64,000 bases of DNA from Candidatus Tenebribacter davisii (GTDB taxonomy: Bacteria; Cloacimonadota; Cloacimonadia; Cloacimonadales; TCS61). The stretch is taken from positions 12,391 through 76,390 of the forward strand of contig JAVCCH010000130.1 in assembly GCA_030765535.1 (NCBI GenBank), in the 5' to 3' direction. Shown here piece after piece: positions 2 through 62,313 of the stretch (within the stretch, counting starts at the first letter, position 1; the number at the start of each line of letters is the position of its first letter). Under the pieces are notes generated by a model, which ran no database searches, was not told the DNA's origin, and saw only the letters and a program-made list of their open reading frames with translations. A program made the position numbers and the translations under genes.

Positions 2-472
2 GAAGTAAGTGTCTTAACAACTGTTCTCCTAAAAAAAATAGGAGTCAGCAATATACATGCAAAAGTAGATAGCAAAGTTCATGCCAGGATCTTGGAACTT
101 CTGGGAGTTCATAATATTATTTTCCCGGAAGAACAAATCGGTAAGCAGCTTGCAAATTCTCTTATCTCAAGTAGTGTTATGGAGTATGTAGATCTTTCCA
201 GCGGCCATAGTGTTGTGGAACTGCTTGTACCTGATGAATGGGTTGGAAAAACTTTACAGCAGCTTGCTCTTCCAACTGAAAAAAGTGTTAATATAATTGC
301 AATTAAATATACAGTACAGAGCGTAACGGAAGAAGGAGAAAATGTCATTAGTAATGAAATTAACGATATGCCCGGTGCTAATGACGTGATCAATGATGAC
401 GACGTTCTAGTGCTTATCGGACCTAAAAGTAAAATTGATGAACTTATAGAAGAAACAAGTAAAAAAGGATAG
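2..472 (+). CDS. K+ uptake regulatory subunit (TrkA/KtrA family), 3' portion; 5' end lies outside the window
   Basis: The frame is open from base 2 (EVSVLTTVLLKKIGVSNIHAKVDSKVHARILELLGV...), so the TTG at 92 in the ORF track is not the true start. The C-terminal part (VVELLVPDEWVGKTLQQLALP...DDDVLVLIGPKSKIDEL) resembles a TrkA-C/RCK_C domain. Confidence 0.7.
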   Translation, partial: EVSVLTTVLLKKIGVSNIHAKVDSKVHARILELLGVHNIIFPEEQIGKQLANSLISSSVMEYVDLSSGHSVVELLVPDEWVGKTLQQLALPTEKSVNIIAIKYTVQSVTEEGENVISNEINDMPGANDVINDDDVLVLIGPKSKIDELIEETSKKG

Positions 473-3157: not shown

Positions 3158-4315
3158 GTGAATAGAAATTTTGTAGTATTAATATTAGTTTTAATTGTTA
3201 TAGCTTTACTCTTTTATCCGGTAATTTTCAAAAATAGAGAAACTGCAAGAAATTTAGACTCTAAAGGTTTATCTGTAGATACATTACAAGAAAGGCCAAA
3301 TGATAAAGAACTTAGAACAGATAAGATTAGATCATCCAGAAGAAATGCCATTACAAATGCAGCGGAGATCATTGAACCTGCAGTTGTTAGTGTTAACGTG
3401 ATCAAAACAAAAATGGTTAAACGCAGACGTGGTTTTTTCTTTGGTTTTTATGATGAAGTTCCCTATAATATTCAGGGAATTGGTTCAGGTGTAATTTTTT
3501 CTAAAGATGGATTTATTATTACCAATGCGCATGTTGTAGAAGGTGCTACGGAAATAAAAGTCATTCTAACTGATACCAGACAATTTGACGCAAAAGTGAT
3601 TGGAATAGATAAAAGCCATGACATTTCAGTTTTAAAAATTAACGGAAACAATCTTCCTTATGCCAAATTTGGGGATTCAGATGATCTGATAATTGGTGAA
3701 TGGGCAATTGCACTTGGTAATCCATATGGATTTTTAATTAAAGACAGTAAACCAAGTGTTTCGGTTGGTGTGATTTCTGCCTTAAACAGGGACTTTGCTG
3801 AAAATAATGATGGCAAGATATATCGTCATATGGTACAAACAGATGCAGCTATCAATTCGGGAAATAGCGGGGGGCCACTCGTAAATATTTATGGTGAAAT
3901 AATAGGAATTAATACATTCATTTTCTCAGAATCCGGTGGTAATATAGGTATTGGTTTTGCCATTCCAATTAATACAGTAAAAAAATCTGCACGCGAATTA
4001 ATTGAATATGGAAAAATACGACAGATATGGTTTGGCTTTAAAGTTCAAGAGCTGAATCAGCTCATTGCATCGCATTTAAAACTTAAAAGTCTTGACGGAG
4101 TTTTGGTAAATTATATTCAAAGAAAGAGTCCCGCTGCACTTACCGGACTAAAAGAAGGAGACATCGTTGTAGAGATAAATGGTAATACCATCAAAGACAC
4201 TCGAGATGCTGAACTGGCTGTCTCTGATATCTCAGTAGGAGATAAAATTAGAATTGGTATATTACGTGATGGTAAACCTCTGGAAATTGTATTAAACGCT
4301 GTAGAAAATAGATAA
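3158..4315 (+). CDS. htrA: HtrA/DegP/DegS-family serine protease with one PDZ domain, N-terminal membrane anchor
   Basis: Triad contexts are TNAHVV (His), DISVLKI (Asp) and GNSGGPLVN (Ser). The C-terminal region (GLKEGDIVVEINGNTI) is PDZ-like. GTG start. Confidence 0.85.
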   Translation: MNRNFVVLILVLIVIALLFYPVIFKNRETARNLDSKGLSVDTLQERPNDKELRTDKIRSSRRNAITNAAEIIEPAVVSVNVIKTKMVKRRRGFFFGFYDEVPYNIQGIGSGVIFSKDGFIITNAHVVEGATEIKVILTDTRQFDAKVIGIDKSHDISVLKINGNNLPYAKFGDSDDLIIGEWAIALGNPYGFLIKDSKPSVSVGVISALNRDFAENNDGKIYRHMVQTDAAINSGNSGGPLVNIYGEIIGINTFIFSESGGNIGIGFAIPINTVKKSARELIEYGKIRQIWFGFKVQELNQLIASHLKLKSLDGVLVNYIQRKSPAALTGLKEGDIVVEINGNTIKDTRDAELAVSDISVGDKIRIGILRDGKPLEIVLNAVENR

Positions 4316-26191: not shown

Positions 26192-28096
26192 TTAAGTCTC
26201 TATTAATATATCTTTTATCCTCTTTACCATAGAATTCACATCCAATTTGCAAAGCTTGAAAACATCATCACTATTGCCGGAAAATGCGTAATCTTCTACA
26301 CCGAATTTTACAAATTTACAAGGCAAGCTTATCTGCATCATTTTATCGGCAATACTGTTGCCAATACCTGTATTAACGTTGTGATCTTCATAAGTAAACA
26401 CGGTTCCGGTTTTTGCAGCTTGTTTTAAAGCTTCTTCGTCCAGATCATTCGGGCAGGATACATTCCATACCTGCAATGAAATTCCCTGTTCTTTCAGCTT
26501 TTCTGCAATAGAAAGAGCTCTTACCGCTAGAGTACCCATGACAAAAAGGGCGGCGGAATTTCCATTACATAACAAGTCAGCCTTACCATATTCAAATTTG
26601 TAATCTTTTCCAAAGAATATATCACCATTTTGCTTTTTTATGATTTCCAATTTAGAACGTCCCATAGGAATGAGGAAGTTTCCATATTTTACCGAAATAT
26701 ATCTAATTACTCTATCTGTTTGATTTGGATCAGCCGGGATAATAATTTTAAAATGGTACAGATTCTTCATAACTCCAAAATAATCTATACACTGATGAGT
26801 TTTACCATCTTCGCCAACATCAAGTCCAACATGTGTAGTTATGATTTTTAAATTAGAATTATTAATATCACTCAATCTATGCTGGTTATAAGTTTCATCA
26901 ACGCCGAAAACGCCGAAATCAGGGAAGAAAACCTGTAATCTCTCTTTAGACATAGCTGCACCGAGAACGGCCGTATTATGCTCCATTATACCACCTTGAA
27001 TAAAGTTTTGCGGCAAAACAGCTTCAAATTCTTTGGTTTTAACGCTTCCTTGCAGATCACAATCTAAAACAACAATTGGAGCATTACTATTTTTTGATGC
27101 TATATCGGCAATTGCATTTCCCCAGGCAGATCGATTATCAGTTTTCTTATCATATATTATCGGATTGCCCAGATTAATGTCAAAATCAGAATTTAGTTTA
27201 TCTGAATGAACTGAATTGTCAGGGTTAAATTCATTTCTAAGTTTTTTATACTTTTCAAAATCATTCTCAAGACCAAGTTCTTTTAACGCATCTGCGAGTT
27301 GTTCTTCCGAAAGTGGAGAACCATGATATTTTTTCTTGTTCTCCATAAATGATACGCCTTTACCCATAACACTATGTCCAATGATAACGGTTGGTTTCTC
27401 ATTTTGAACTGCGTCAATTATGGAATTTCTTATTTCAACTAGATCATGACCATCGATCTCAATTACATCCCAACCGTCAGAAAGATAGTTCTCCATGATA
27501 TTTTGCGGCATTACTTTATTGATGTCTCCACTTATCTGTAATTGATTCAGATCAATAAAACCAGTAATATTCAAATTATATTTTACAGCAAATCTACGGG
27601 CTTCACATAGTTGCCCTTTCTGCTGTTCACCATCACCCATCAAAACGAAAGTGTGATTATCAATATTTTTTAATTTACATGCCAGCGCAAATCCGCATCC
27701 GGCTGAAAGTCCCTGTCCCAGGTTACCGCTTGCCCACTCAATTCCCGGAACATCAGGTTCAACATGACCCTCAAAGATGCTGCCGGCAAACCTGAATTGA
27801 GATATAGCATCATCAAGATCAACAAAACCACATGTAGCTAACGTAGAATATGCAGCTGGAGATGTATGACCGTGACTGATAATTACCCGATCTCTAGTTT
27901 CCATTTTCGGATTTTTAGGATCTACATTGATCATATTATAAAGAGTCAGCATGAAATCTATAGTTGACATTGATCCACCCGGATGGCCTGACTTAGCTAA
28001 AGTTGTCATCTTAATTATAGAGCCCCGAGCTTCATTTGCTTTTATTTGGATCTCTTTCAATTGTTTAATTGAAAGTTGAGCTTTATCTAAATTCAT
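26192..28096 (-). CDS. tkt: Transketolase
   Basis: Contains GHPGGSMS and the GDGEQQKGQ TPP-binding motif; full-length, about 634 aa. I prefer ATG 28096, 7 nt after GGAGG, to the TTG at 28111. Confidence 0.9.
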   Translation of the reverse strand: MNLDKAQLSIKQLKEIQIKANEARGSIIKMTTLAKSGHPGGSMSTIDFMLTLYNMINVDPKNPKMETRDRVIISHGHTSPAAYSTLATCGFVDLDDAISQFRFAGSIFEGHVEPDVPGIEWASGNLGQGLSAGCGFALACKLKNIDNHTFVLMGDGEQQKGQLCEARRFAVKYNLNITGFIDLNQLQISGDINKVMPQNIMENYLSDGWDVIEIDGHDLVEIRNSIIDAVQNEKPTVIIGHSVMGKGVSFMENKKKYHGSPLSEEQLADALKELGLENDFEKYKKLRNEFNPDNSVHSDKLNSDFDINLGNPIIYDKKTDNRSAWGNAIADIASKNSNAPIVVLDCDLQGSVKTKEFEAVLPQNFIQGGIMEHNTAVLGAAMSKERLQVFFPDFGVFGVDETYNQHRLSDINNSNLKIITTHVGLDVGEDGKTHQCIDYFGVMKNLYHFKIIIPADPNQTDRVIRYISVKYGNFLIPMGRSKLEIIKKQNGDIFFGKDYKFEYGKADLLCNGNSAALFVMGTLAVRALSIAEKLKEQGISLQVWNVSCPNDLDEEALKQAAKTGTVFTYEDHNVNTGIGNSIADKMMQISLPCKFVKFGVEDYAFSGNSDDVFKLCKLDVNSMVKRIKDILIET

Positions 28097-55904: not shown

Positions 55905-55940
55905 AAAAGCATGAAGAAGGTGACCATAAGTCACCCTCTT
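55905..55940 (-). terminator. Probable terminator hairpin after sppA
   Basis: The minus-strand RNA forms an 11-bp stem (AAGAGGGUGAC/GUCACCUUCUU, one G-U pair) with loop UUAUG. The downstream U-tract is only 4 nt, so this is a weak call. Confidence 0.45.
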
Positions 55941-55951
55941 ATATTAATTTG

Positions 55952-57697
55952 TTAGTTCTCTATCTCAAAAGGCAGAATAGCTTGCAGGGGATCATTCTTA
56001 ATTGATTTTAATAATTCCCAGGCTTTCAGAACTCCTTTGTCTTCTTTTATCTGATTTTTAATTATGGTTTCAGCAAGGTCAATCTCAAATTTTTCCCTTA
56101 ACATCTCTTCCAGGAAGCTCTTTTGTCTGGGATAATATTCGACTGTAAACTCTATGATATTACTGAGTTCAGCAGCTTTTTTTATAGCTTTATCCAGCAT
56201 TCCTACTTCATCTATCAATTTGTTGTTAAGAGCATCCTGGGCTGACCATACTTGCCCTTGAGCGATCAGCTCAACTTCGTTCAGTGATATATCTCTGCCG
56301 TTTGCTACTCTTTGTTTGAATTCCAGATAAGTTTCTAGTATACTTATTCGCATAGATTGTGTTGTTGATTCATCAAGTTTTGTATAGATACTCATTGCGT
56401 TTGAGAATTTCCCTTTTGAGATCTCTTGCTCATGAATGCCAAGCTTATCTGTGAGTTGAGAAATGTTGGGAATCATAGCAACAACACCGATTGAGCCGGT
56501 TATTGTAAAAGGATCGGCAAAGATGTAATCGGATTCAGCCGAGATATAATATCCACCTGAGGCAGCAACATTGCCCATTGAAATTATTACAGGCTTTGTC
56601 TTTCTTAATCGCTTTATTCTATCATGGATTATTTCAGAAACTAGTGCACTTCCACCTGGACTATTAACGCGGATCACAACGCTTTTTACATCATTGTCTT
56701 TCTCTAGTTTTGCGAGAATTTTATTTAGTTTTGAAGCTGTAATGTTCAAGCTGTTAAATCCACCTGACTGCATTACAATTCCACCTTGTGCATATACTAT
56801 GGCAATATTAGAGCTTGACCGTTTGAAATTCGGCATCTTATATTTAGAAATTGAAATTAAATTTCTTTTAGTAATACCAAGTTTTTTATAGAGATCTTCT
56901 TTGAAGCAAAGCCGGTCTACCAGGTTGTATTTTAATGCTCTATCTTTATTGATAAAAAGTTCATTCCTTTTTTCATAAATATCAGTTATAGCTGAAATAT
57001 CAATACTGCGATTATCAGCCAGTTTTAGAAGTATCTCATTATATACATTGGTGTATAACCGATCAAGATTTTTTCGCACCGGTTCAGATAGACTATTACG
57101 TGAATATGTTTCTCCTGCTCCTTTATATTTTCCAGCATGGATTACGTTTATATCAACCCCAATCTTATCGAAGAAATCCTTATAAAAAAGTATTCCTCCT
57201 CCAACTCCTGTCAGCATTATCCCGGCTGAAGCAGAAGGATTAAGATAAATGCTATCTGCAACGGTTGATAAGAAATAATCTCTATTCATGGCAAAATCAA
57301 GATAGGCATTGATCTCTTTCCCTGATTTTTTGAAATTTTCCATCGCAGCCATTATCTCATTAAGACCGGCATAACCACAGGCAATAAAATTCGGTTCAAG
57401 TAAAATACCTTTGATCTTATCATCCTTTGATGCTTTGTTGATCTTATGAACTATATTGTGAACTGAATTCGTCTTTCCTGAAAATGCACCCTGGAAAGGA
57501 TCATCTTTATATTCATTATAGGTAATTACCTGACCGCTAATGTCTAATTTCAACCATGAACCTTCCGTAATCCTTTCCGGCATTGGTTTCTTAAATCCTT
57601 TTCCAATAGTACCAAAACTTATTATCATACTAAAAACAAAAACAATAATTATTATAACTGATGTAAGACATCCTAATGAAAACCATTTTGATTTCAT
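55952..57697 (-). CDS. sppA: Signal peptide peptidase SppA, 67K type (two S49 domains)
   Basis: N-terminal TM helix, duplicated ClpP/crotonase-like halves and the Ser context GNVAASGGYYIS. Confidence 0.85.
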   Translation of the reverse strand: MKSKWFSLGCLTSVIIIIVFVFSMIISFGTIGKGFKKPMPERITEGSWLKLDISGQVITYNEYKDDPFQGAFSGKTNSVHNIVHKINKASKDDKIKGILLEPNFIACGYAGLNEIMAAMENFKKSGKEINAYLDFAMNRDYFLSTVADSIYLNPSASAGIMLTGVGGGILFYKDFFDKIGVDINVIHAGKYKGAGETYSRNSLSEPVRKNLDRLYTNVYNEILLKLADNRSIDISAITDIYEKRNELFINKDRALKYNLVDRLCFKEDLYKKLGITKRNLISISKYKMPNFKRSSSNIAIVYAQGGIVMQSGGFNSLNITASKLNKILAKLEKDNDVKSVVIRVNSPGGSALVSEIIHDRIKRLRKTKPVIISMGNVAASGGYYISAESDYIFADPFTITGSIGVVAMIPNISQLTDKLGIHEQEISKGKFSNAMSIYTKLDESTTQSMRISILETYLEFKQRVANGRDISLNEVELIAQGQVWSAQDALNNKLIDEVGMLDKAIKKAAELSNIIEFTVEYYPRQKSFLEEMLREKFEIDLAETIIKNQIKEDKGVLKAWELLKSIKNDPLQAILPFEIEN

Positions 57698-57712: not shown

Positions 57713-59053
57713 TTAATTTAAATTCAACTCTTTCAATTTACGTGATAAATTACTGATTTGCAGATCCAGTGCTTTGGCAGTATTAGAAATATTATTATTG
57801 TGCATTTTTAACTGAATTGATAAATATTTTGTTTCAAATTCTTTCCTTTTATCTTTTAAGGATATCGTTTCATTCCAAAAGTTGGAATCTGCCCGTTTAA
57901 CAATACCAAGATTTTTAATATCTCCCAGCTCAATTACTATTTTAGGATTTAGAATGTAGAGTCTTTCAATGAAATTCTTCAATTCTCTAATATTACCTTT
58001 GAATTCCCATGAACATAACTCAGTAATTGACTGCGGAAGAAATTCCTTTTGCTGTAATTTCAACTCATTTGAAAATTGTTTAGAAAAGTATTCAATTAAT
58101 ATTGGAATATCTTCCGGATGCTGTCGTAGGGGAGGTGTGATTATTGGAATTACATTTAAGCGGTAATAAAGGTCTTCTCTAAACTCTCCTTTTTGTACGA
58201 GATCTTCCAGATTCTTATGAGTTGCTGCAATAAGTCTTACATCGACTTTCTGGGTTTTATTACCACCAACTCTCTCGAATTCACCTTCCTGTATCACCCT
58301 TAGTATCTTAGATTGCGCCTGAAGGCTCATATCTCCGATCTCATCAAGGAAAAGAGTCCCACTATGTGCTTGTTCAATCTTCCCATTTTTACTTTGTGTG
58401 GCTCCTGTAAAAGCCCCTTTCTCATAACCAAATAACTCACTTTCTACAAGCTCGGTTGGAATTGCAGCTGAATTGAATTTTGCAAAGGGGTTATTTTTTC
58501 TATTACTTCTATGATGTATAGCATAAGCAACCAGTTCTTTACCGGTACCGCTCTCTCCTCGTATAAGTACTTTTGAATCACTGGCAGCTATTCTATCCAC
58601 TAAAGATAACAATTCCTTTATTGGTTCACTATTGCCGATTATTCTATATTGTTCATTTTCGTTTTCTTTTAATCTATTGTAGTCTTTTGAGATAGTTTTA
58701 AATTCAAAAGCTTTTTTAATTACTATTTTTACTTTTGATAAACTAAGCGGTTTTTCAAGAAAATCATAAGCTCCATACTTGATAGATTGAACTGCTTCTT
58801 TTATCCCACTGTGACCTGATATCATAATGACAATTACATCTTCCCGGATCTTTTTTATATCTTTAAGAAGATCAATACCATTTGTTCCATCAAGTCTTAC
58901 ATCCAGAAGAATTACATCAGGAGTGTTATCCTCAAATTTTTGCATTCCCAATCTGCTGTCAATTGCAAAGTCACATTTATAACCTTCATCTTCCAAGATA
59001 TTTTTTAATGTTAAGCAAATATTCATTTCATCATCAATGATAAGGACTTTCAT
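57713..59053 (-). CDS. Sigma-54-dependent response regulator (REC + AAA+ enhancer-binding domain + HTH; NtrC/NtrX-like)
   Basis: Contains DVILLDVRLDG (phospho-Asp context), GESGTGKE, an intact GAFTGA loop and a C-terminal Fis-type HTH. Confidence 0.9.
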   Translation of the reverse strand: MKVLIIDDEMNICLTLKNILEDEGYKCDFAIDSRLGMQKFEDNTPDVILLDVRLDGTNGIDLLKDIKKIREDVIVIMISGHSGIKEAVQSIKYGAYDFLEKPLSLSKVKIVIKKAFEFKTISKDYNRLKENENEQYRIIGNSEPIKELLSLVDRIAASDSKVLIRGESGTGKELVAYAIHHRSNRKNNPFAKFNSAAIPTELVESELFGYEKGAFTGATQSKNGKIEQAHSGTLFLDEIGDMSLQAQSKILRVIQEGEFERVGGNKTQKVDVRLIAATHKNLEDLVQKGEFREDLYYRLNVIPIITPPLRQHPEDIPILIEYFSKQFSNELKLQQKEFLPQSITELCSWEFKGNIRELKNFIERLYILNPKIVIELGDIKNLGIVKRADSNFWNETISLKDKRKEFETKYLSIQLKMHNNNISNTAKALDLQISNLSRKLKELNLN

Positions 59054-60223
59054 TTATTTCTCCTGTTTCAATGTGAATCCGTGAGGGATCATAATAACAA
59101 AACAGCTACCTTCATTTTCTTCACTGGTCACACTAATTTTTGAATTATTTACATCAACTAATTTTTTTACTAAGGCAAGACCAAGACCGGTCCCTTTTTT
59201 CTTTTTTGTGAAATAAGGTTCAAAGATCCTATCAATATCTTTCTTGCTGATACCTTTGCCGGAATCTGCAATTCTTACTGAAACATTCATATTGTCCTGT
59301 TCAATTTTTATTGTGATGGCACCAGTTGGATCAGAAGCATCAATAGCGTTCTGGATCAGGTTTGTAATGATCTGGTAGAAATGTGTTTTATCAAAGAAGA
59401 TATTGCAGTTTTCACCTGATATATCAATTTTAAATTTATGCTGGTAAGAATTAATTATTTCATTTAGAGTCTCGTTAAGGTCAAACTCTATGAATTCAGG
59501 ATTAATATTTTTAGCAAAATTAGAGAAAGAACTGACCAGCAGTTTTAGATTATTGATCTCCTGGTTGATTATCCTGACAGATTCAGGGAAAACTTCGTAA
59601 AATTTATTAAGATCAGTCTCATATTTTTCTTCTAATCTTTGAATTGAAAGCTGGATCGGAGTAAGTGGATTCTTTATTTCATGAGCCAATATGCGGGAGA
59701 GTTCCTTCCAGATGATATCTTTTTCAGCCTGGATCAATTTTCTCTGAGTATTACTCAGCTCGCGTGACATACTGTTAAATGACTGCTTCAATTCACGAAT
59801 TTCTTTTAAACCGGTTTCAGGCAGGGATACAGAAAAATCTCCCTCTCTGATATTTCCTGTAGCTTTTTGTAATTCATTTAAGGGTTTGGTAATTTTATAT
59901 AATAGTAAAATAAAAATTGCAATGGATAAAATCATTAATAATAATAAATAAACCATAGAATAGATTTGTGCTTCCTGCTTCATCATTTCTGCATCTGCAA
60001 GATTTTGGCGAAAGTTATTCAACAGTTCACGTGCTTTGTTGCTATCCTGTTTTGTCTTATATGCAAGTTCAGACATAGAAGTATCAAATTTCATTTCAGT
60101 GAATAGTTCATTAGATTGCTGATACTTTTTCACGAAGAAATTGTTAATTATAAATAAACTGGATAAATAAAGAAGCAGAAATACTAGAATTACGCTGGAT
60201 CTTATACCGGGATTAAGTTTCAT
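59054..60223 (-). CDS. Sensor histidine kinase (2 TM, HAMP, HisKA, HATPase; NtrY-like)
   Basis: Contains the H-box LAHEIKNPLTPI and GTGLGLALVKK. Abuts the response regulator gene. Confidence 0.85.
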   Translation of the reverse strand: MKLNPGIRSSVILVFLLLYLSSLFIINNFFVKKYQQSNELFTEMKFDTSMSELAYKTKQDSNKARELLNNFRQNLADAEMMKQEAQIYSMVYLLLLMILSIAIFILLLYKITKPLNELQKATGNIREGDFSVSLPETGLKEIRELKQSFNSMSRELSNTQRKLIQAEKDIIWKELSRILAHEIKNPLTPIQLSIQRLEEKYETDLNKFYEVFPESVRIINQEINNLKLLVSSFSNFAKNINPEFIEFDLNETLNEIINSYQHKFKIDISGENCNIFFDKTHFYQIITNLIQNAIDASDPTGAITIKIEQDNMNVSVRIADSGKGISKKDIDRIFEPYFTKKKKGTGLGLALVKKLVDVNNSKISVTSEENEGSCFVIMIPHGFTLKQEK

Positions 60224-60761
60224 TGTTATCTTCTGCCAACTCTATAGTAAATTTCGGTTCATTAAATTTCCATAGCATCATAAGATCAAAATCTCTATTC
60301 AATGTTTCTAATCTTATTTTAGGAAGATATGCATTCATTGTAAGTGTGCAGTCATGGATATTTTCGTTTTCATAACTATATTCAACATTCGAGATTATAT
60401 TTGTTAATTCAAGAAAAGAGCCGGTAGTAGAAGTTAGATCCTGATCTTCAAGCATAATATTAAATGATTGTGAAAGAGGATCAAAAATAATGGTATGTTT
60501 AAATTCTTCTTCATGGATCAACTGATCATTCAGTTCGATTTTTATTTTAAAGAAGACATCAATATTTTGGCCGGATTTAAAGATCTCTTCAAAATCGTTA
60601 TCAAAAGCATTTTCCAGTCTGCATTCCATGAATATTTTGTCATCAATAAAAGATCTTGAAAAATTTGAAAATGCAGCGTCATTACCTTGATAGGAAGAAA
60701 GAAGCAGCATCGAAAAAGCCGCTAGTCCAGTTATGATCTTTTCAGCAAAAATCTGGAACAA
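60213..60761 (-). CDS. Periplasmic DUF4390-like protein
   Basis: Signal or anchor segment, with IFMECRLENAFDNDFEEIFKSGQNIDVFFKIKIEL resembling the DUF4390 core. TTG start 5 nt after AGGGAGG. Overlaps the kinase gene by 11 nt. Confidence 0.5.
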   Translation of the reverse strand: MFQIFAEKIITGLAAFSMLLLSSYQGNDAAFSNFSRSFIDDKIFMECRLENAFDNDFEEIFKSGQNIDVFFKIKIELNDQLIHEEEFKHTIIFDPLSQSFNIMLEDQDLTSTTGSFLELTNIISNVEYSYENENIHDCTLTMNAYLPKIRLETLNRDFDLMMLWKFNEPKFTIELAEDNNET

Positions 60762-60773
60762 TTATTCCTCCCT

Positions 60774-60809
60774 AAAAAAAAGAGCCTCTAACATGATAGT
60801 TAGAGACTC
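60774..60809 (-). terminator. Strong intrinsic terminator or attenuator between the PDZ gene and the DUF4390-kinase-regulator genes
   Basis: The minus-strand RNA reads GAGUCUCUAAC-uaucau-GUUAGAGGCUC (11 bp, one G-U pair) followed by U8. The U-tract runs directly into the AGGGAGG ribosome-binding site of the next gene. Confidence 0.75.
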
Positions 60810-60827
60810 ATCAATATTTGTCAATAA

Positions 60828-62015
60828 TTAAAATCCGAACCAAGGTCCAATTGAGATCGTATATCCATCGAAAGATGTCTCCGGTGAATTCTCAATTTCA
60901 AAATCATCATCGCAGGAAATTGCATTCCATCCGTTAGTAAAGGAGTGAGAAATAATATAACCTCCTTCTGCTCTAATACTGAGCCAATCAAGGATTTTAT
61001 ACATTACAACTGCTTTTGGTTGGAACATAATGTAATTCTTTTCAATTTCAATAGCATTGTTAGAAGAGGAATCCATATCATCATTTAAAGTAAGCCAGTC
61101 ATAAGATCCATCAGTTTGGGATATTTGTAGATTGTGACCACCCCATCCCAGCATGAAACCTAGTGATGATACCATGTTTTTAGTGAAAGCGAAACGTTTA
61201 TCCAGTGTAACACCACCGAAGGAATTAGAATAATTCATTCTACGTGTAACATCATCGCCGCTTAAAGTTGTATAGCCTTTCTTCTTGTCTATTGAGTAGC
61301 TGGCTCCCATGCCACCGATGAACCATCCTCTTCCGACATTACCGTGACCACCGCCACCTTGCATAAGTATGCCCTTTTCACTTATTCCCTGGAATCCAAA
61401 TTCATTTAAGATATAGTTAATGTCCTCAAATTCATCAGCTGCTGTATACCATATCGGCATCCATCCACCGCCGCCAAATCCAACTGATAATTTTTTCTTC
61501 TTTTTTACTCCATCTTTAGTAGTAGCTTCCGTTCCTTTAGGATTAAGAGTTTCAAGTGTAAGATTAGTTATGAGTTCTTCTTCATCTCTGAAGATCTTTA
61601 CTTTTACTTCTTCACCTATATTTTTACTGGTGATAAGATTAACCAAGTGATTTTCAAATTTTGCCTTTTTACCATCAAATTCCATAATGATATCACCTTT
61701 TATTATTCCCGCCATTTGTGCTGGTCCGCCTGTTGTCACACCAGTTACAAAGACTCCGTAACAATAGGGATAATGTTTTTCATATGCATCTTCAAAATCC
61801 ATGTCAGATAAATAAACACCCATTTTAGGTTTTTCACCTGACAAGTTTTTAAAATCAATTGTGATCTCGCTAGTTCCGGGAATTTGTTCTAATGCCTCCT
61901 GAACTTCGATCATAGCCTCATCGATCTCCTGCTGAACATCCTCAGCTGATTCCTGTGCCATCAATGACATTGACATAATTGCCAGTCCTAATACTGTGAT
62001 TAAGATCTTTTTCAT
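60828..62015 (-). CDS. Secreted PDZ-domain protein with Gly-rich, beta-barrel-like C-terminal half ending in an OMP-type beta-signal
   Basis: GGAGG lies 5 nt before ATG 62015. Signal peptide (SLMAQ), PDZ core (GVFVTGVTTGGPAQMAGIIKGDIIMEFDG) and C-terminus ...YTISIGPWFGF. Confidence 0.6.
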   Translation of the reverse strand: MKKILITVLGLAIMSMSLMAQESAEDVQQEIDEAMIEVQEALEQIPGTSEITIDFKNLSGEKPKMGVYLSDMDFEDAYEKHYPYCYGVFVTGVTTGGPAQMAGIIKGDIIMEFDGKKAKFENHLVNLITSKNIGEEVKVKIFRDEEELITNLTLETLNPKGTEATTKDGVKKKKKLSVGFGGGGWMPIWYTAADEFEDINYILNEFGFQGISEKGILMQGGGGHGNVGRGWFIGGMGASYSIDKKKGYTTLSGDDVTRRMNYSNSFGGVTLDKRFAFTKNMVSSLGFMLGWGGHNLQISQTDGSYDWLTLNDDMDSSSNNAIEIEKNYIMFQPKAVVMYKILDWLSIRAEGGYIISHSFTNGWNAISCDDDFEIENSPETSFDGYTISIGPWFGF

Positions 62016-62090
62016 AATAACCTCCAATTTTTTTTATACTTTTTCTTTAGAATTCACATCTCACTTCTATAAATCTCATTTTGGATAAAC

Positions 62091-62105
62091 GCAAAACGTG
62101 TGCCA
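62091..62105 (-). promoter_or_regulatory. Sigma-54 (-24/-12) promoter TGGCAC-ACGTT-TTGC
   Basis: The minus strand reads TGGCACACGTTTTGC, a full match to TGGCAC-N5-TTGC (GG-N10-GC). It lies about 75 nt upstream of ATG 62015, and a GAFTGA activator is encoded in the same locus. Confidence 0.65.
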
Positions 62106-62192
62106 AATATGCAAATTGACATATAACTTTATATGATTTAGAAAGTTAGGACTTGTTGGAAAGATTATAGTTAAAATAAAATTTAATACTTT

Positions 62193-62275
62193 TGATAAGT
62201 GAGATCGACTTACTTTATCAAAATGATAAATAATGAACTATGATTCCTTTTAACTTATAATAATAATATTTATCA
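62193..62275. promoter_or_regulatory. Cluster of four TGATAA(A/G)/TTTATCA half-sites (candidate upstream activator sequence)
   Basis: The sites are TGATAAG 62193-99, TTTATCA 62214-20, TGATAAA 62224-30 (together forming the palindrome TTTATCA-AAA-TGATAAA) and TTTATCA 62269-75. They lie about 90-170 bp upstream of the -24 element. Confidence 0.4.
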
Positions 62276-62313
62276 GAAAATAATTTTCAAAAGTCAAGGG
62301 ATAGTATGATTTA

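What the first reader, a model, noticed from the sequence alone, without database searches (positions are those of the whole stretch)
62091..62105. Full-consensus sigma-54 -24/-12 element in an AT-rich spacer
Seen in sequence: the minus strand reads TGGCACACGTTTTGC, that is TGGCAC-N5-TTGC with the invariant GG and GC exactly 10 nt apart. It lies about 75 nt upstream of the ATG at 62015 and about 65 nt upstream of the GGAGG ribosome-binding site.
Established: this is the canonical RpoN promoter consensus.
Inference: by rough reasoning, a 10-base GC-containing match is very unlikely by chance in this composition and at this position. I have not computed a formal probability. My by-eye scan of both strands found no other full match in the window.
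Basis: partly seen in the sequence, partly recalled or inferred. Interest (0 to 1): 0.55.

Follow-up and report, generated by a model that had tools for sequence, protein, structure and literature searches.

The report
Conserved sigma-54 promoter with upstream enhancer
The flagged 15-base motif is very probably a working sigma-54 promoter, complete with an upstream enhancer, that switches on a secreted PDZ-domain envelope protein next to its own sensor-regulator genes in an uncultured Cloacimonadota bacterium; it is a clean new example of a well-known type of switch, not a new kind.

Summary
It is the only exact TGGCAC-N5-TTGC in the window. About 0.06 are expected per window, and 0.0003-0.0016 in promoter-eligible positions.

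It lies 76 nt upstream of a gene for a secreted PDZ + beta-barrel-like protein. Downstream follow a DUF4390 protein, a HAMP histidine kinase, an NtrC/NtrX-like sigma-54 activator with an intact GAFTGA motif, and SppA.

In 80 orthologous loci from other Cloacimonadota species:
- 32 of 76 evaluable loci carry a perfect element upstream of the orthologue, where background predicts about 0.05 loci.
- 73 of 76 carry a relaxed one.

A second conserved element appeared: a TTATCA-N3-TGATAA dyad plus a TTATCA half-site, centred near -143 and -112. It keeps a fixed 112-116 nt spacing to the -24 box; the one outlier is +10 nt. This is the geometry of an NtrC-type enhancer. The regulator's recognition helix is near-invariant and covaries with the dyad's flanking base.

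A conserved terminator-like hairpin follows the PDZ gene, so that gene is the main output.

I could not locate rpoN, and there are no transcript data. Verdict: observation confirmed, interpretation supported, a new member of a known kind, of moderate interest.

The parts
62091..62105 (-). Sigma-54 -24/-12 core promoter, TGGCAC-ACGTT-TTGC. GG is at 62104/62103 and GC at 62092/62091.
   Evidence: unique; 0.06 expected. (0.0003-0.0016 expected in eligible positions). (conserved upstream of orthologues).
62078..62080 (-). Predicted transcription start, about 62079 (12 nt downstream of the -12 C). This is inferred, not measured.
   Evidence: Standard sigma-54 numbering applied. There are no transcript data.
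62215..62229 (-). Enhancer site I: the dyad TTATCA-TTT-TGATAA, centred at 62222 (about -143).
   Evidence: the only TATCA-N3-TGATA in the window (0.32 expected); 47 copies in 920 kb of Cloacimonadota DNA. 29 lie 72-187 nt upstream of a sigma-54 element scoring at least 9/10, and 10 more lie upstream of PDZ genes with a variant -12 box.
62184..62198 (-). Enhancer site II: TTATCA-AAA-GTATTA. It has a strong left half-site (62198..62193) and a degenerate right half. It is centred at 62191 (about -112), 31 bp from site I.
   Evidence: TGATAA-N16-TTATCA (62220..62193) recurs in 32 loci plus the window, at 112-116 nt from the -24 T in 32 cases and 124 nt in one.
62016..62079 (-). Predicted 5' leader, unstructured, with the RBS GGAGG at 62025..62021.
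   Evidence: dG -3.0 kcal/mol, z +0.46. (no Rfam family). (no leader micro-ORF here, unlike 12 relatives).
60828..62015 (-). First and main regulated gene: a secreted 395-aa protein with a signal peptide, an HtrA-type PDZ domain and a C-terminal beta-barrel-like domain ending in ...GPWFGF.
   Evidence: PDZ_2, E 2.3e-13. (366 homologues, Cloacimonadota). (model pLDDT 75; long antiparallel strands over residues 181-393). (the PDZ domain matches DegP/DegQ/DegS, E about 2e-6).
60774..60809 (-). Conserved intrinsic-terminator-like hairpin (GAGTCTCTAAC...GTTAGAGGCTC) plus a T8 run, between the PDZ gene and the DUF4390 gene.
   Evidence: (dG -17.4 kcal/mol, z -2.98). (26 loci; 7 of 13 pairs with compensatory changes).
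60819..60824 (-). Invariant TTGACA immediately after the PDZ stop codon. Role unexplained.
   Evidence: identical in 26 of 26 aligned loci. Its distance to the hairpin varies from 11 to 24 nt.
60213..60761 (-). DUF4390 (PlrP-like) protein with an N-terminal signal-like segment. It overlaps the kinase gene by 11 nt.
   Evidence: window copy weak, E 2.8e-4. (27 of 31 orthologues match PF14334, best E 5.8e-18). (PlrP literature).
59054..60223 (-). Sensor histidine kinase with two predicted TM segments, HAMP, HisKA and HATPase_c domains.
   Evidence: HATPase_c 5.5e-27, HAMP 3e-13, HisKA 3.7e-9. (syntenic).
57713..59053 (-). Sigma-54-dependent response regulator (receiver, AAA+ with GAFTGA, Fis-type HTH). 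It is the proposed activator that binds the enhancer.
   Evidence: Sigma54_activat 2.7e-74, Response_reg 4.1e-25, HTH_8 4.3e-6. (GAFTGA). (best hit NtrX, 421 bits, below the 600 cut-off). (conserved recognition helix that covaries with the dyad).
55952..57697 (-). Signal peptide peptidase SppA, 15 nt after the regulator gene. It is the last gene of the cluster.
   Evidence: TIGR00705, 386 bits, above the 311 cut-off. (follows the RR in 29 loci).
55914..55940 (-). Terminator-like hairpin after SppA, the probable end of the transcription unit.
   Evidence: 12 pairs, 5 of them G-C.

Best explanation
The motif is the core of a functional sigma-54 (RpoN)-dependent promoter. The proposed mechanism has six steps.

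1. Sigma-54 holoenzyme binds the -24 GG / -12 GC element at 62105..62091 as a closed complex.
2. The phosphorylated NtrC/NtrX-like response regulator encoded about 3 kb downstream (59053..57713) binds two dyad sites. These are TTATCA-N3-TGATAA centred near -143, and TTATCA plus a weak half centred near -112. The sites are three helical turns apart.
3. The regulator oligomerises, loops the intervening AT-rich DNA, and uses ATP hydrolysis through its GAFTGA loop to open the promoter. Transcription starts near 62079.
4. The main product is a secreted protein with an HtrA-type PDZ domain and a beta-barrel-like domain.
5. A conserved hairpin plus T-run stops most transcripts after that gene. Read-through, or an unidentified internal start, supplies the DUF4390 protein, kinase, regulator and SppA. 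This would give positive feedback.
6. The input is probably an envelope or secretion signal. It would be sensed by the small-loop HAMP kinase together with the periplasmic DUF4390 partner.

Shown: the motif, its rarity, its conservation, the conserved dyad and its fixed phasing, the gene content, the synteny and the hairpin. Inferred: that sigma-54 is present, that the adjacent regulator is the one that binds the dyads, the start site, the read-through, and the nature of the signal.
For: - Motif exact and unique. Expected 0.0003-0.0016 in eligible positions.
- Orthologue footprinting: 32/76 perfect, 53/76 at least 9/10 and 73/76 relaxed, against 0.0006, 0.0099 and 0.155 expected.
- 34 of 37 perfect matches in the Cloacimonadota loci are this element.
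- Family consensus TGGCAcA-N4-TTGCat.
- Enhancer: 34 of the 35 TGATAA-N13-19-TTATCA sites in 1.84 Mb (both strands) lie upstream of PDZ genes.
- TATCA-N3-TGATA: 39 of 47 copies are upstream of PDZ genes. It is unique in the window.
- Spacing to the -24 box is 112-116 nt in 32 of 33 cases and 124 nt (+10) in one, with an unconserved spacer sequence.
- The upstream neighbour gene varies between loci while the dyad-to-promoter spacing does not.
- Activator: PF00158 at E 2.7e-74, intact GAFTGA and an HTH_8 domain.
- PDZ-DUF4390-HK-RR synteny in at least 37 loci.
- Recognition helix Q-x-SNLSRK[LI]KEL is near-invariant. x = V/I goes with TTATCA and x = Q with ATATCA.
- Geometry matches NtrC at glnAp2, with sites centred at -140 and -108 (PMC5159524), and the usual 100-140 bp enhancer distance (PMC2709558).
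- A second sigma-54 activator gene lies about 9.5 kb left of the window.
Against: - rpoN was not found in the window, in the 10-kb flanks, or in any fetched Cloacimonadota locus. A dedicated hunt failed to recover a Cloacimonadota RpoN. The presence of sigma-54 is therefore inferred only.
- There are no transcript, footprint or genetic data, and the organism is uncultured.
- No terminator is predicted after the upstream ppnP gene, so read-through could contribute transcription.
- The window motif departs from the extended canonical consensus at two flanking positions: A instead of G after TGGCAC, and G instead of A/T after TTGC.
- The covariation between helix residue and dyad flank involves only a few clades, so it could be shared ancestry.
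- The strong internal hairpin means autoregulation of the two-component genes is uncertain.
Confidence: 0.85

Rival explanations
1. The promoter is a real sigma-54 promoter, but the conserved TATCA dyads are bound by a different protein. This could be another enhancer-binding protein encoded elsewhere (one lies about 9.5 kb left of the window), or a repressor or nucleoid protein. In that case the adjacent response regulator is not the activator.
For: - Binding was not tested.
- Several PDZ paralogues with the same promoter and dyad have no adjacent two-component system (L060, L063, L064, L068-L074, L077, L079, L080), so regulation in trans clearly happens.
- The genome encodes at least one more sigma-54 activator.
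- The half-sites resemble the hexamers of a Fur box (my own knowledge of the consensus GATAATGATAATCATTATC).
Against: - Co-location of promoter, dyad and this regulator family in at least 37 species.
- The regulator's recognition helix is near-invariant and its variable residue partitions with the dyad flank.
- The dyad orientation (TTATCA-N3-TGATAA) is the reverse of the Fur 7-1-7 arrangement (TGATAAT-N-ATTATCA).
- The site sits at -112/-143 with helical phasing to the -24 box. That fits an enhancer, not an operator overlapping a promoter.
Confidence: 0.1
2. Transcription of the PDZ gene comes from a housekeeping-sigma promoter that overlaps the motif (TTGGCA-17-CAAAAT at 62106..62078), or from read-through from ppnP. 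The -24/-12 resemblance would then be incidental or non-productive.
For: - One search lists a 9-of-12 sigma-70-like match at 62106..62078 and a 10-of-12 match at 62290..62263.
- No terminator is predicted after ppnP.
Against: - Sigma-70-like matches in this region are no more frequent than in shuffles (42 found against 43.3 expected).
- In orthologues the conserved positions are TGGCAC and TTGC, exactly 5 nt apart. No -10-like hexamer is conserved downstream (consensus lines).
- The upstream gene differs between loci.
Confidence: 0.03
3. The match is a chance occurrence in AT-rich spacer DNA with no function.
For: 6 of 100 shuffles of the whole window produce at least one exact match somewhere.
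Against: - Expected 0.0003-0.0016 in promoter-eligible positions.
- The same element is found at the same place in dozens of species whose proteins are only 36-84% identical.
- It is accompanied by a phased upstream dyad.
Confidence: 0.02

Closest known systems
E. coli glnAp2 promoter with its NtrC enhancer (sigma-54 / NtrB-NtrC)
   Same: - A -24/-12 core promoter.
- Two activator dyad sites three helical turns apart, centred about -140 and -108 in glnAp2 (PMC5159524) and about -143 and -112 here.
- A receiver-AAA+-Fis-HTH activator with GAFTGA.
- No conserved IHF-like site in the spacer, as at the IHF-independent glnAp2 (PMC2709558).
   Different: - The half-site sequence is TTATCA/TGATAA instead of the TGCACC/GGTGCA type (the latter from my own knowledge).
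- The target is an envelope PDZ protein, not glutamine synthetase.
- The regulator scores below the NtrC equivalog cut-off (420 against 558.6 bits).
- The phylum is Cloacimonadota, with no experimental data.
NtrYX-family three-component system PlrP-PlrS-PlrR of Bordetella (DUF4390 partner)
   Same: - A signal-peptide DUF4390 protein is encoded immediately 5' of the kinase gene and overlaps it, followed by an NtrX-like regulator (PMC13001219).
- NtrX is the regulator's best NCBIfam hit.
   Different: - The kinase here is short (389 aa) with HAMP but no PAS or PDC domain detected.
- The regulator is below the NtrX cut-off (421 against 600 bits).
- Here GAFTGA is intact and a sigma-54 promoter is adjacent. 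Several proteobacterial NtrX proteins are reported to lack GAFTGA (my own knowledge, not checked here).
- There is no rsmB upstream.
- The lineage is outside Proteobacteria, which was the only group the paper surveyed.
ZraP-ZraS-ZraR envelope stress system of Enterobacteria
   Same: - A sigma-54-dependent two-component system whose main output is a periplasmic or envelope protein encoded next to the sensor-regulator pair.
- Possible autoregulation (ZraR autoregulation is noted in PMC12316311).
   Different: - ZraP is a small periplasmic chaperone transcribed divergently. Here the output is a PDZ + barrel protein transcribed co-directionally and separated by a terminator.
- The regulator scores 336 bits against the ZraR cut-off of 760.
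- No metal-sensing evidence.
DegS/RseP-RpoE outer-membrane stress pathway (PDZ domains reading OMP C-termini)
   Same: The regulated protein's PDZ domain is structurally closest to the DegP/DegQ/DegS PDZ domains, and the cluster ends with the membrane protease SppA. This suggests envelope or secretion quality control.
   Different: - No protease domain is attached to this PDZ.
- Control is by sigma-54 plus an activator, not by an ECF sigma and anti-sigma proteolysis.
- This is a functional analogy only.

Membership tests
Sigma-54 (-24/-12) promoters | Conserved GG and GC dinucleotides exactly 10 bp apart within TGGCAC-N5-TTGC | tested here: met
   a 10/10 match at 62105..62091, unique in the window.
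Sigma-54 (-24/-12) promoters | Intergenic, oriented toward a downstream gene at a plausible leader distance | tested here: met
   76 nt upstream of the ATG at 62015, on the same strand; 0.0003-0.0016 expected by chance at such positions.
Sigma-54 (-24/-12) promoters | Conservation of the element upstream of orthologous genes | tested here: met
   32/76 perfect and 73/76 relaxed. 34 of 37 perfect matches in the loci are this element.
Sigma-54 (-24/-12) promoters | An enhancer-binding AAA+ activator with a GAFTGA loop encoded in the genome | tested here: met
   PF00158 at E 2.7e-74 with GAFTGA present; a second such gene near the window.
Sigma-54 (-24/-12) promoters | Upstream activator sites about 80-150 bp from the promoter | tested here: met
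   conserved dyads centred about -143 and -112 with fixed phasing. Binding itself was not tested.
Sigma-54 (-24/-12) promoters | rpoN present in the same genome | tested here: inconclusive
   Not in the window, its flanks or the fetched loci. The search for a Cloacimonadota RpoN through metagenome DNA patterns, a representative search and name look-ups failed.
Sigma-54 (-24/-12) promoters | rpoN- and activator-dependent transcription start about 12 nt downstream of the GC | not testable with these tools
   This needs 5'-end mapping or a reporter assay.
NtrYX / PlrPSR three-component systems | DUF4390 periplasmic protein gene immediately 5' of, and overlapping, the kinase gene | tested here: met
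   (11-nt overlap). (27 of 31 orthologues hit PF14334, best E 5.8e-18). (definition from PMC13001219).
NtrYX / PlrPSR three-component systems | NtrY/PlrS-type kinase architecture (periplasmic PDC, HAMP, PAS, HisKA, HATPase) | tested here: not met
   only HAMP, HisKA and HATPase_c in 389 aa. No PAS or PDC domain was detected.
NtrYX / PlrPSR three-component systems | Regulator is an NtrX equivalog | tested here: not met
   NF051870 NtrX is the top hit, but at 421.4 bits against a cut-off of 600. NtrC (TIGR01818) scores nearly the same at 420.3 bits.
NtrC-type tandem-dyad enhancer (glnAp2-like) | Two dyad sites about three helical turns apart, 100-140 bp upstream, on a fixed helical face | tested here: met
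   (31 bp centre to centre; spacing 112-116 nt, with one +10 outlier). Reference geometry.

The most novel reading that the evidence does not exclude
This may be a phylum-wide, sigma-54-driven envelope or secretion quality-control circuit. It would be built from a DUF4390-kinase-NtrX-like activator module, making it the first such three-component system outside Proteobacteria. It would come with a defined direct target (a PDZ + outer-membrane-barrel protein), a defined enhancer sequence (TTATCA-N3-TGATAA), and a sequence-conserved terminator/TTGACA element that meters feedback onto the sensor genes. If true, it would give the poorly understood NtrYX/DUF4390 family a clean, portable promoter-enhancer pair for biochemical study.
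Probability: 0.35. Interest if true: 0.55.

Novelty: new member of a known kind. Interest (0 to 1): 0.38.

Why it matters
Sigma-54 promoters with upstream enhancers are textbook biology, so this one is not surprising. There are still three reasons it is useful.

1. Cloacimonadota are uncultured, and I found no paper linking the phylum to sigma-54. This locus gives a well-supported regulatory element for the phylum: promoter, enhancer consensus, activator and target.

2. The adjacent sensor module has the DUF4390-kinase-NtrX-like layout that a 2026 Bordetella study proposed as a three-component system. That study surveyed only Proteobacteria. Here the same layout occurs in a distant phylum with an obvious direct target, which the proteobacterial systems lack.

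3. Sigma-54 promoters and their activators usually work in E. coli, so the circuit can be tested heterologously even though the host cannot be grown.

Tried and rejected
- **Locating rpoN.** No RpoN box in the window or in 84 loci, and no Sigma54 domains in the 10-kb flanks.
Composition and neighbour-protein screens found none that were Cloacimonadota-like.
  - The best candidate, L105, proved to be Neomarinimicrobiota.
  - An exhaustive representative search seeded with that RpoN, plus 30 name look-ups, gave Marinimicrobia, Fidelibacterota, Ignavibacteria and Spirosomataceae only.
  - Two contig look-ups were uninformative. I abandoned this line; one protein search was left unused.
- **Other sigma-54 sites in the window.** 72..86 lies antisense inside trkA and 26349..26363 lies inside an ORF. 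Both rejected as chance.
- **Known RNA elements** in the leader or around the hairpin. Rfam gave only sub-threshold hits, L10_leader at E 0.26 and VrrA at E 0.35. The leader is unstructured.
- **IHF-like or other conserved site** between enhancer and promoter. None is conserved across the 33 phased loci.
- **Sigma-70-type promoter reading.** Not enriched over shuffles and not conserved.
- **Fur-box reading of the dyad.** The half-site orientation is reversed and the position is wrong for an operator.
- **Fold match for the C-terminal barrel.** PDZ hits dominated the PDB search, and no Pfam family covers the domain. The "outer-membrane barrel" label rests only on the model's strand pattern and the C-terminal Phe.
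- **TTGACA after the PDZ stop as a -35 box.** No -10 element at a consistent spacing, and the distance to the hairpin varies. Left unexplained.
- **Literature.** The Francke et al. 2011 sigma-54 survey and its supplements, the 2025 sigma-54 regulon survey, the Ace Lake Tenebribacter paper with its supplements, and the Cloacimonadota pangenome preprint contain nothing on sigma-54 in this phylum.

Full report
**1. The observation**

On the minus strand the window reads TGGCACACGTTTTGC at 62105..62091. GG is at 62104/62103 and GC at 62092/62091. The downstream ATG is at 62015 and GGAGG at 62025..62021, so the element ends 76 nt from the start codon and 66 nt from the RBS. The 395-aa product from that ATG is 100% identical to a database protein, which fixes the start.

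The pattern TGGCAC-N5-TTGC occurs once on both strands of the 64-kb window. Dinucleotide-preserving shuffles give 0.06 per window. Only 5.2% of the window is intergenic. Restricting to the 3,331 strand-specific positions within 300 nt upstream of a gene start gives an expectation of 0.0016 at the shuffle rate, or 0.0003 from intergenic composition.

Allowing one mismatch adds two sites. One is inside an ORF. The other, at 72..86, is antisense within trkA once the flanking contig is read.

**2. Context**

The window comes from a Cloacimonadota genome. The first downstream protein is identical to one named from Candidatus Tenebribacter davisii, an Ace Lake MAG (PMC8542988).

On the same strand downstream of the motif lie:
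- a secreted PDZ-domain protein (62015..60828);
- a small protein with a signal-like N-terminus (60761..60213), which overlaps the next gene by 11 nt;
- a HAMP-HisKA-HATPase sensor kinase (60223..59054);
- a receiver-AAA+-HTH_8 response regulator (59053..57713). Its sigma-54 interaction domain scores E 2.7e-74 and it carries an intact GAFTGA;
- signal peptide peptidase SppA (57697..55952), which scores above its NCBIfam cut-off.

A terminator-like hairpin follows SppA. Upstream are ppnP and a TPR lipoprotein gene in the same orientation.

The small protein is only a weak DUF4390 match on its own (E 2.8e-4). However, 27 of 31 orthologues scanned separately hit PF14334, with a best E of 5.8e-18, so the family assignment holds.

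An AlphaFold model of the PDZ protein (mean pLDDT 75) shows a PDZ domain closest to those of DegP, DegQ and DegS. It also shows a confident C-terminal domain of long antiparallel strands ending in ...GPWFGF. I read this as barrel-like, but that is not verified.

**3. Comparative test of the promoter**

I used an alignment of 20 PDZ-protein homologues to fetch 80 loci from different species. Selection was by protein, so it is blind to the upstream DNA.

Among 76 loci with enough upstream sequence:
- 32 have a perfect TGGCAC-N5-TTGC within 450 nt upstream of the orthologue;
- 53 have at least 9/10 with GG and GC intact.

In the remaining 1.6 Mb of those loci (both strands) there are 2 perfect sites and 31 sites at 9/10 or better. 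That corresponds to 0.0006 and 0.0099 per equal-sized region.

A clade that seemed to lack the element (L022-L035) has TGGCAC-N5-TTGA or TTGT, that is, a variant -12 box. With GG and TG fixed and at least 8/10 overall, 73 of 76 loci have the element, against 0.155 expected.

Of the 37 perfect matches anywhere in the Cloacimonadota loci, all but three are this element. The family consensus is TGGCAcA-N4-TTGCat.

This is strong phylogenetic footprinting across proteins that are only 36-84% identical.

**4. A conserved enhancer**

Anchoring the loci on the -24 box revealed a second conserved block. In the window it reads TTATCATTTTGATAA (62229..62215), followed 16 nt later by TTATCAAAAGTATTA (62198..62184).

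- The inverted repeat TGATAA-N16-TTATCA is found at 35 sites in 1.84 Mb of two-strand sequence. 34 of them lie upstream of PDZ genes.
- In more divergent loci the conserved core is the dyad (A/T)TATCA-N3-TGATA(T/A).
- Of 47 TATCA-N3-TGATA copies in 920 kb, 29 lie 72-187 nt upstream of a strong sigma-54 element (mode 115-119 nt). Ten more lie upstream of PDZ genes with variant -12 boxes.
- The dyad is unique in the window, with 0.32 expected.

The distance from TGATAA to the T of TGGCAC is 112 (1 case), 113 (5), 114 (10), 115 (14) or 116 (2) nt. The single outlier is 124 nt, one helical turn more. The spacer sequence itself is not conserved. The gene upstream of the dyad differs among loci, so the dyad travels with the promoter and not with the neighbouring gene.

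Taking +1 as 62079, the two sites are centred at about -143 and -112, which is 31 bp or three turns apart. NtrC sites at glnAp2 are centred at -140 and -108 (PMC5159524). Enhancers usually lie 100-140 bp from the -12 region (PMC2709558).

**5. Which activator?**

The order PDZ, DUF4390, kinase, regulator is conserved in at least 37 loci, and SppA follows in 29. The regulator's C-terminal helix, Q-x-SNLSRK(L/I)KEL, is nearly invariant. Regulators with x = V or I accompany TTATCA...TGATAA. Those with x = Q accompany ATATCA...TGATA(T/A). The partition is clean, but it involves few clades, so I treat it as supportive only.

PDZ paralogues without an adjacent two-component system keep both the promoter and the dyad. 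This implies regulation in trans and leaves room for another activator; a second one is encoded about 9.5 kb left of the window.

**6. Extent of the transcription unit**

Between the PDZ stop and the DUF4390 start there is a hairpin (60809..60782, dG -17.4 kcal/mol, z -2.98) followed by T8. It is conserved in 26 aligned loci, and 7 of its 13 pairs show compensatory changes. In distant loci a different hairpin occupies the same place. The RBS of the next gene follows the T-run directly, which leaves no room for a promoter after it.

The PDZ gene is therefore the principal output. The sensor genes and SppA receive read-through or start from an unidentified site.

Two features exceed what a plain terminator needs: the invariant stem core AGTCTCT/AGAGACT, and an invariant TTGACA two to five nt after the stop codon. 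I could not explain them (note 4).

**7. What could not be shown**

rpoN is not in the window, the flanks or any fetched locus. A multi-step hunt for a Cloacimonadota RpoN failed. Its presence is inferred from two GAFTGA-type activator genes and from the conserved -24/-12 elements.

No transcript or binding data exist. No paper in the library connects this phylum with sigma-54.

**8. Comparison and verdict**

Mechanistically this is an NtrC-type, enhancer-dependent sigma-54 promoter.

The sensor module resembles the DUF4390-NtrY-NtrX (PlrPSR) three-component systems recently defined in Bordetella (PMC13001219). But the kinase lacks PAS and PDC domains, and the regulator is below the NtrX and NtrC equivalog cut-offs. 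I therefore do not file it as a member of that family.

Functionally it recalls ZraPSR-type envelope stress systems. The PDZ and SppA content points to envelope or secretion quality control, and that part is inference.

The added value is a defined enhancer consensus and target in an uncultured phylum.

Noticed in passing
window 60774..60830 (minus strand); alignment A2 of 26 loci: The intergenic segment after the PDZ gene has an invariant TTGACA (60824..60819) right after the stop codon. It also has a covarying terminator-like hairpin whose stem core AGTCTCT/AGAGACT is sequence-conserved. That is more conservation than a plain terminator needs. There is no Rfam match.
   Followed up: partly
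L002:587, L003:394, L006:6913, L015:5245, L016:6912, L023:5151, L025:6043, L026:181, L028:1534, L029:839, L031:6732, L032:6755: In 12 relatives from two clades, a 22-32 aa micro-ORF with its own RBS lies between the sigma-54 promoter and the PDZ gene. Examples are MKNLVIKWNEKKIEVITRSKSKTN and MKHNSIILLWKERKKLYNLPKK. In the second clade a hairpin plus T-run follows it. The window has no such ORF.
   Followed up: partly
L022-L035, L047, L076 (for example L023 about 5099, L029 about 787): One clade has -12 boxes reading TTGA or TTGT instead of TTGC, while keeping a perfect TGGCAC and the upstream dyad. This is a natural -12 variant series that a GC-strict scan misses.
   Followed up: partly
L082:1-487 (about 9.5 kb left of the window start): A second receiver-AAA+-HTH sigma-54 activator gene lies in the same genome, so this organism has at least two sigma-54-dependent regulators.
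   Followed up: no
window 60213..60761 and orthologues (alignment A3): DUF4390 proteins adjacent to a kinase and an NtrX-like regulator are widespread in Cloacimonadota. The 2026 Bordetella study of this domain surveyed only Proteobacteria.
   Followed up: partly
L060, L063, L064, L068-L074, L077, L079, L080: PDZ-barrel paralogues with no adjacent two-component genes still carry the sigma-54 element. In L068-L071, L073 and L080 a TATCA-type dyad is also present, suggesting a small regulon controlled in trans.
   Followed up: partly
L048:5317-5455: This is the only locus whose dyad-to-promoter spacing departs from 112-116 nt. It has 124 nt, one helical turn more, which is consistent with a face-of-helix constraint.
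   Followed up: yes
window 72..86 (minus strand) and 26349..26363 (minus strand): Two one-mismatch sigma-54-like sites (TGGCATGAACTTTGC and TGGCAACAGTATTGC). Both lie inside coding sequence, the first antisense within trkA, and are judged to be chance.
   Followed up: yes
window 3158..4315 (plus strand): A separate HtrA/DegP-type serine protease with a PDZ domain (Trypsin_2 + PDZ, as annotated for the identical gene in L081:9212-10369) is encoded in the same window. I did not examine whether it is related functionally to the PDZ-barrel protein.
   Followed up: no
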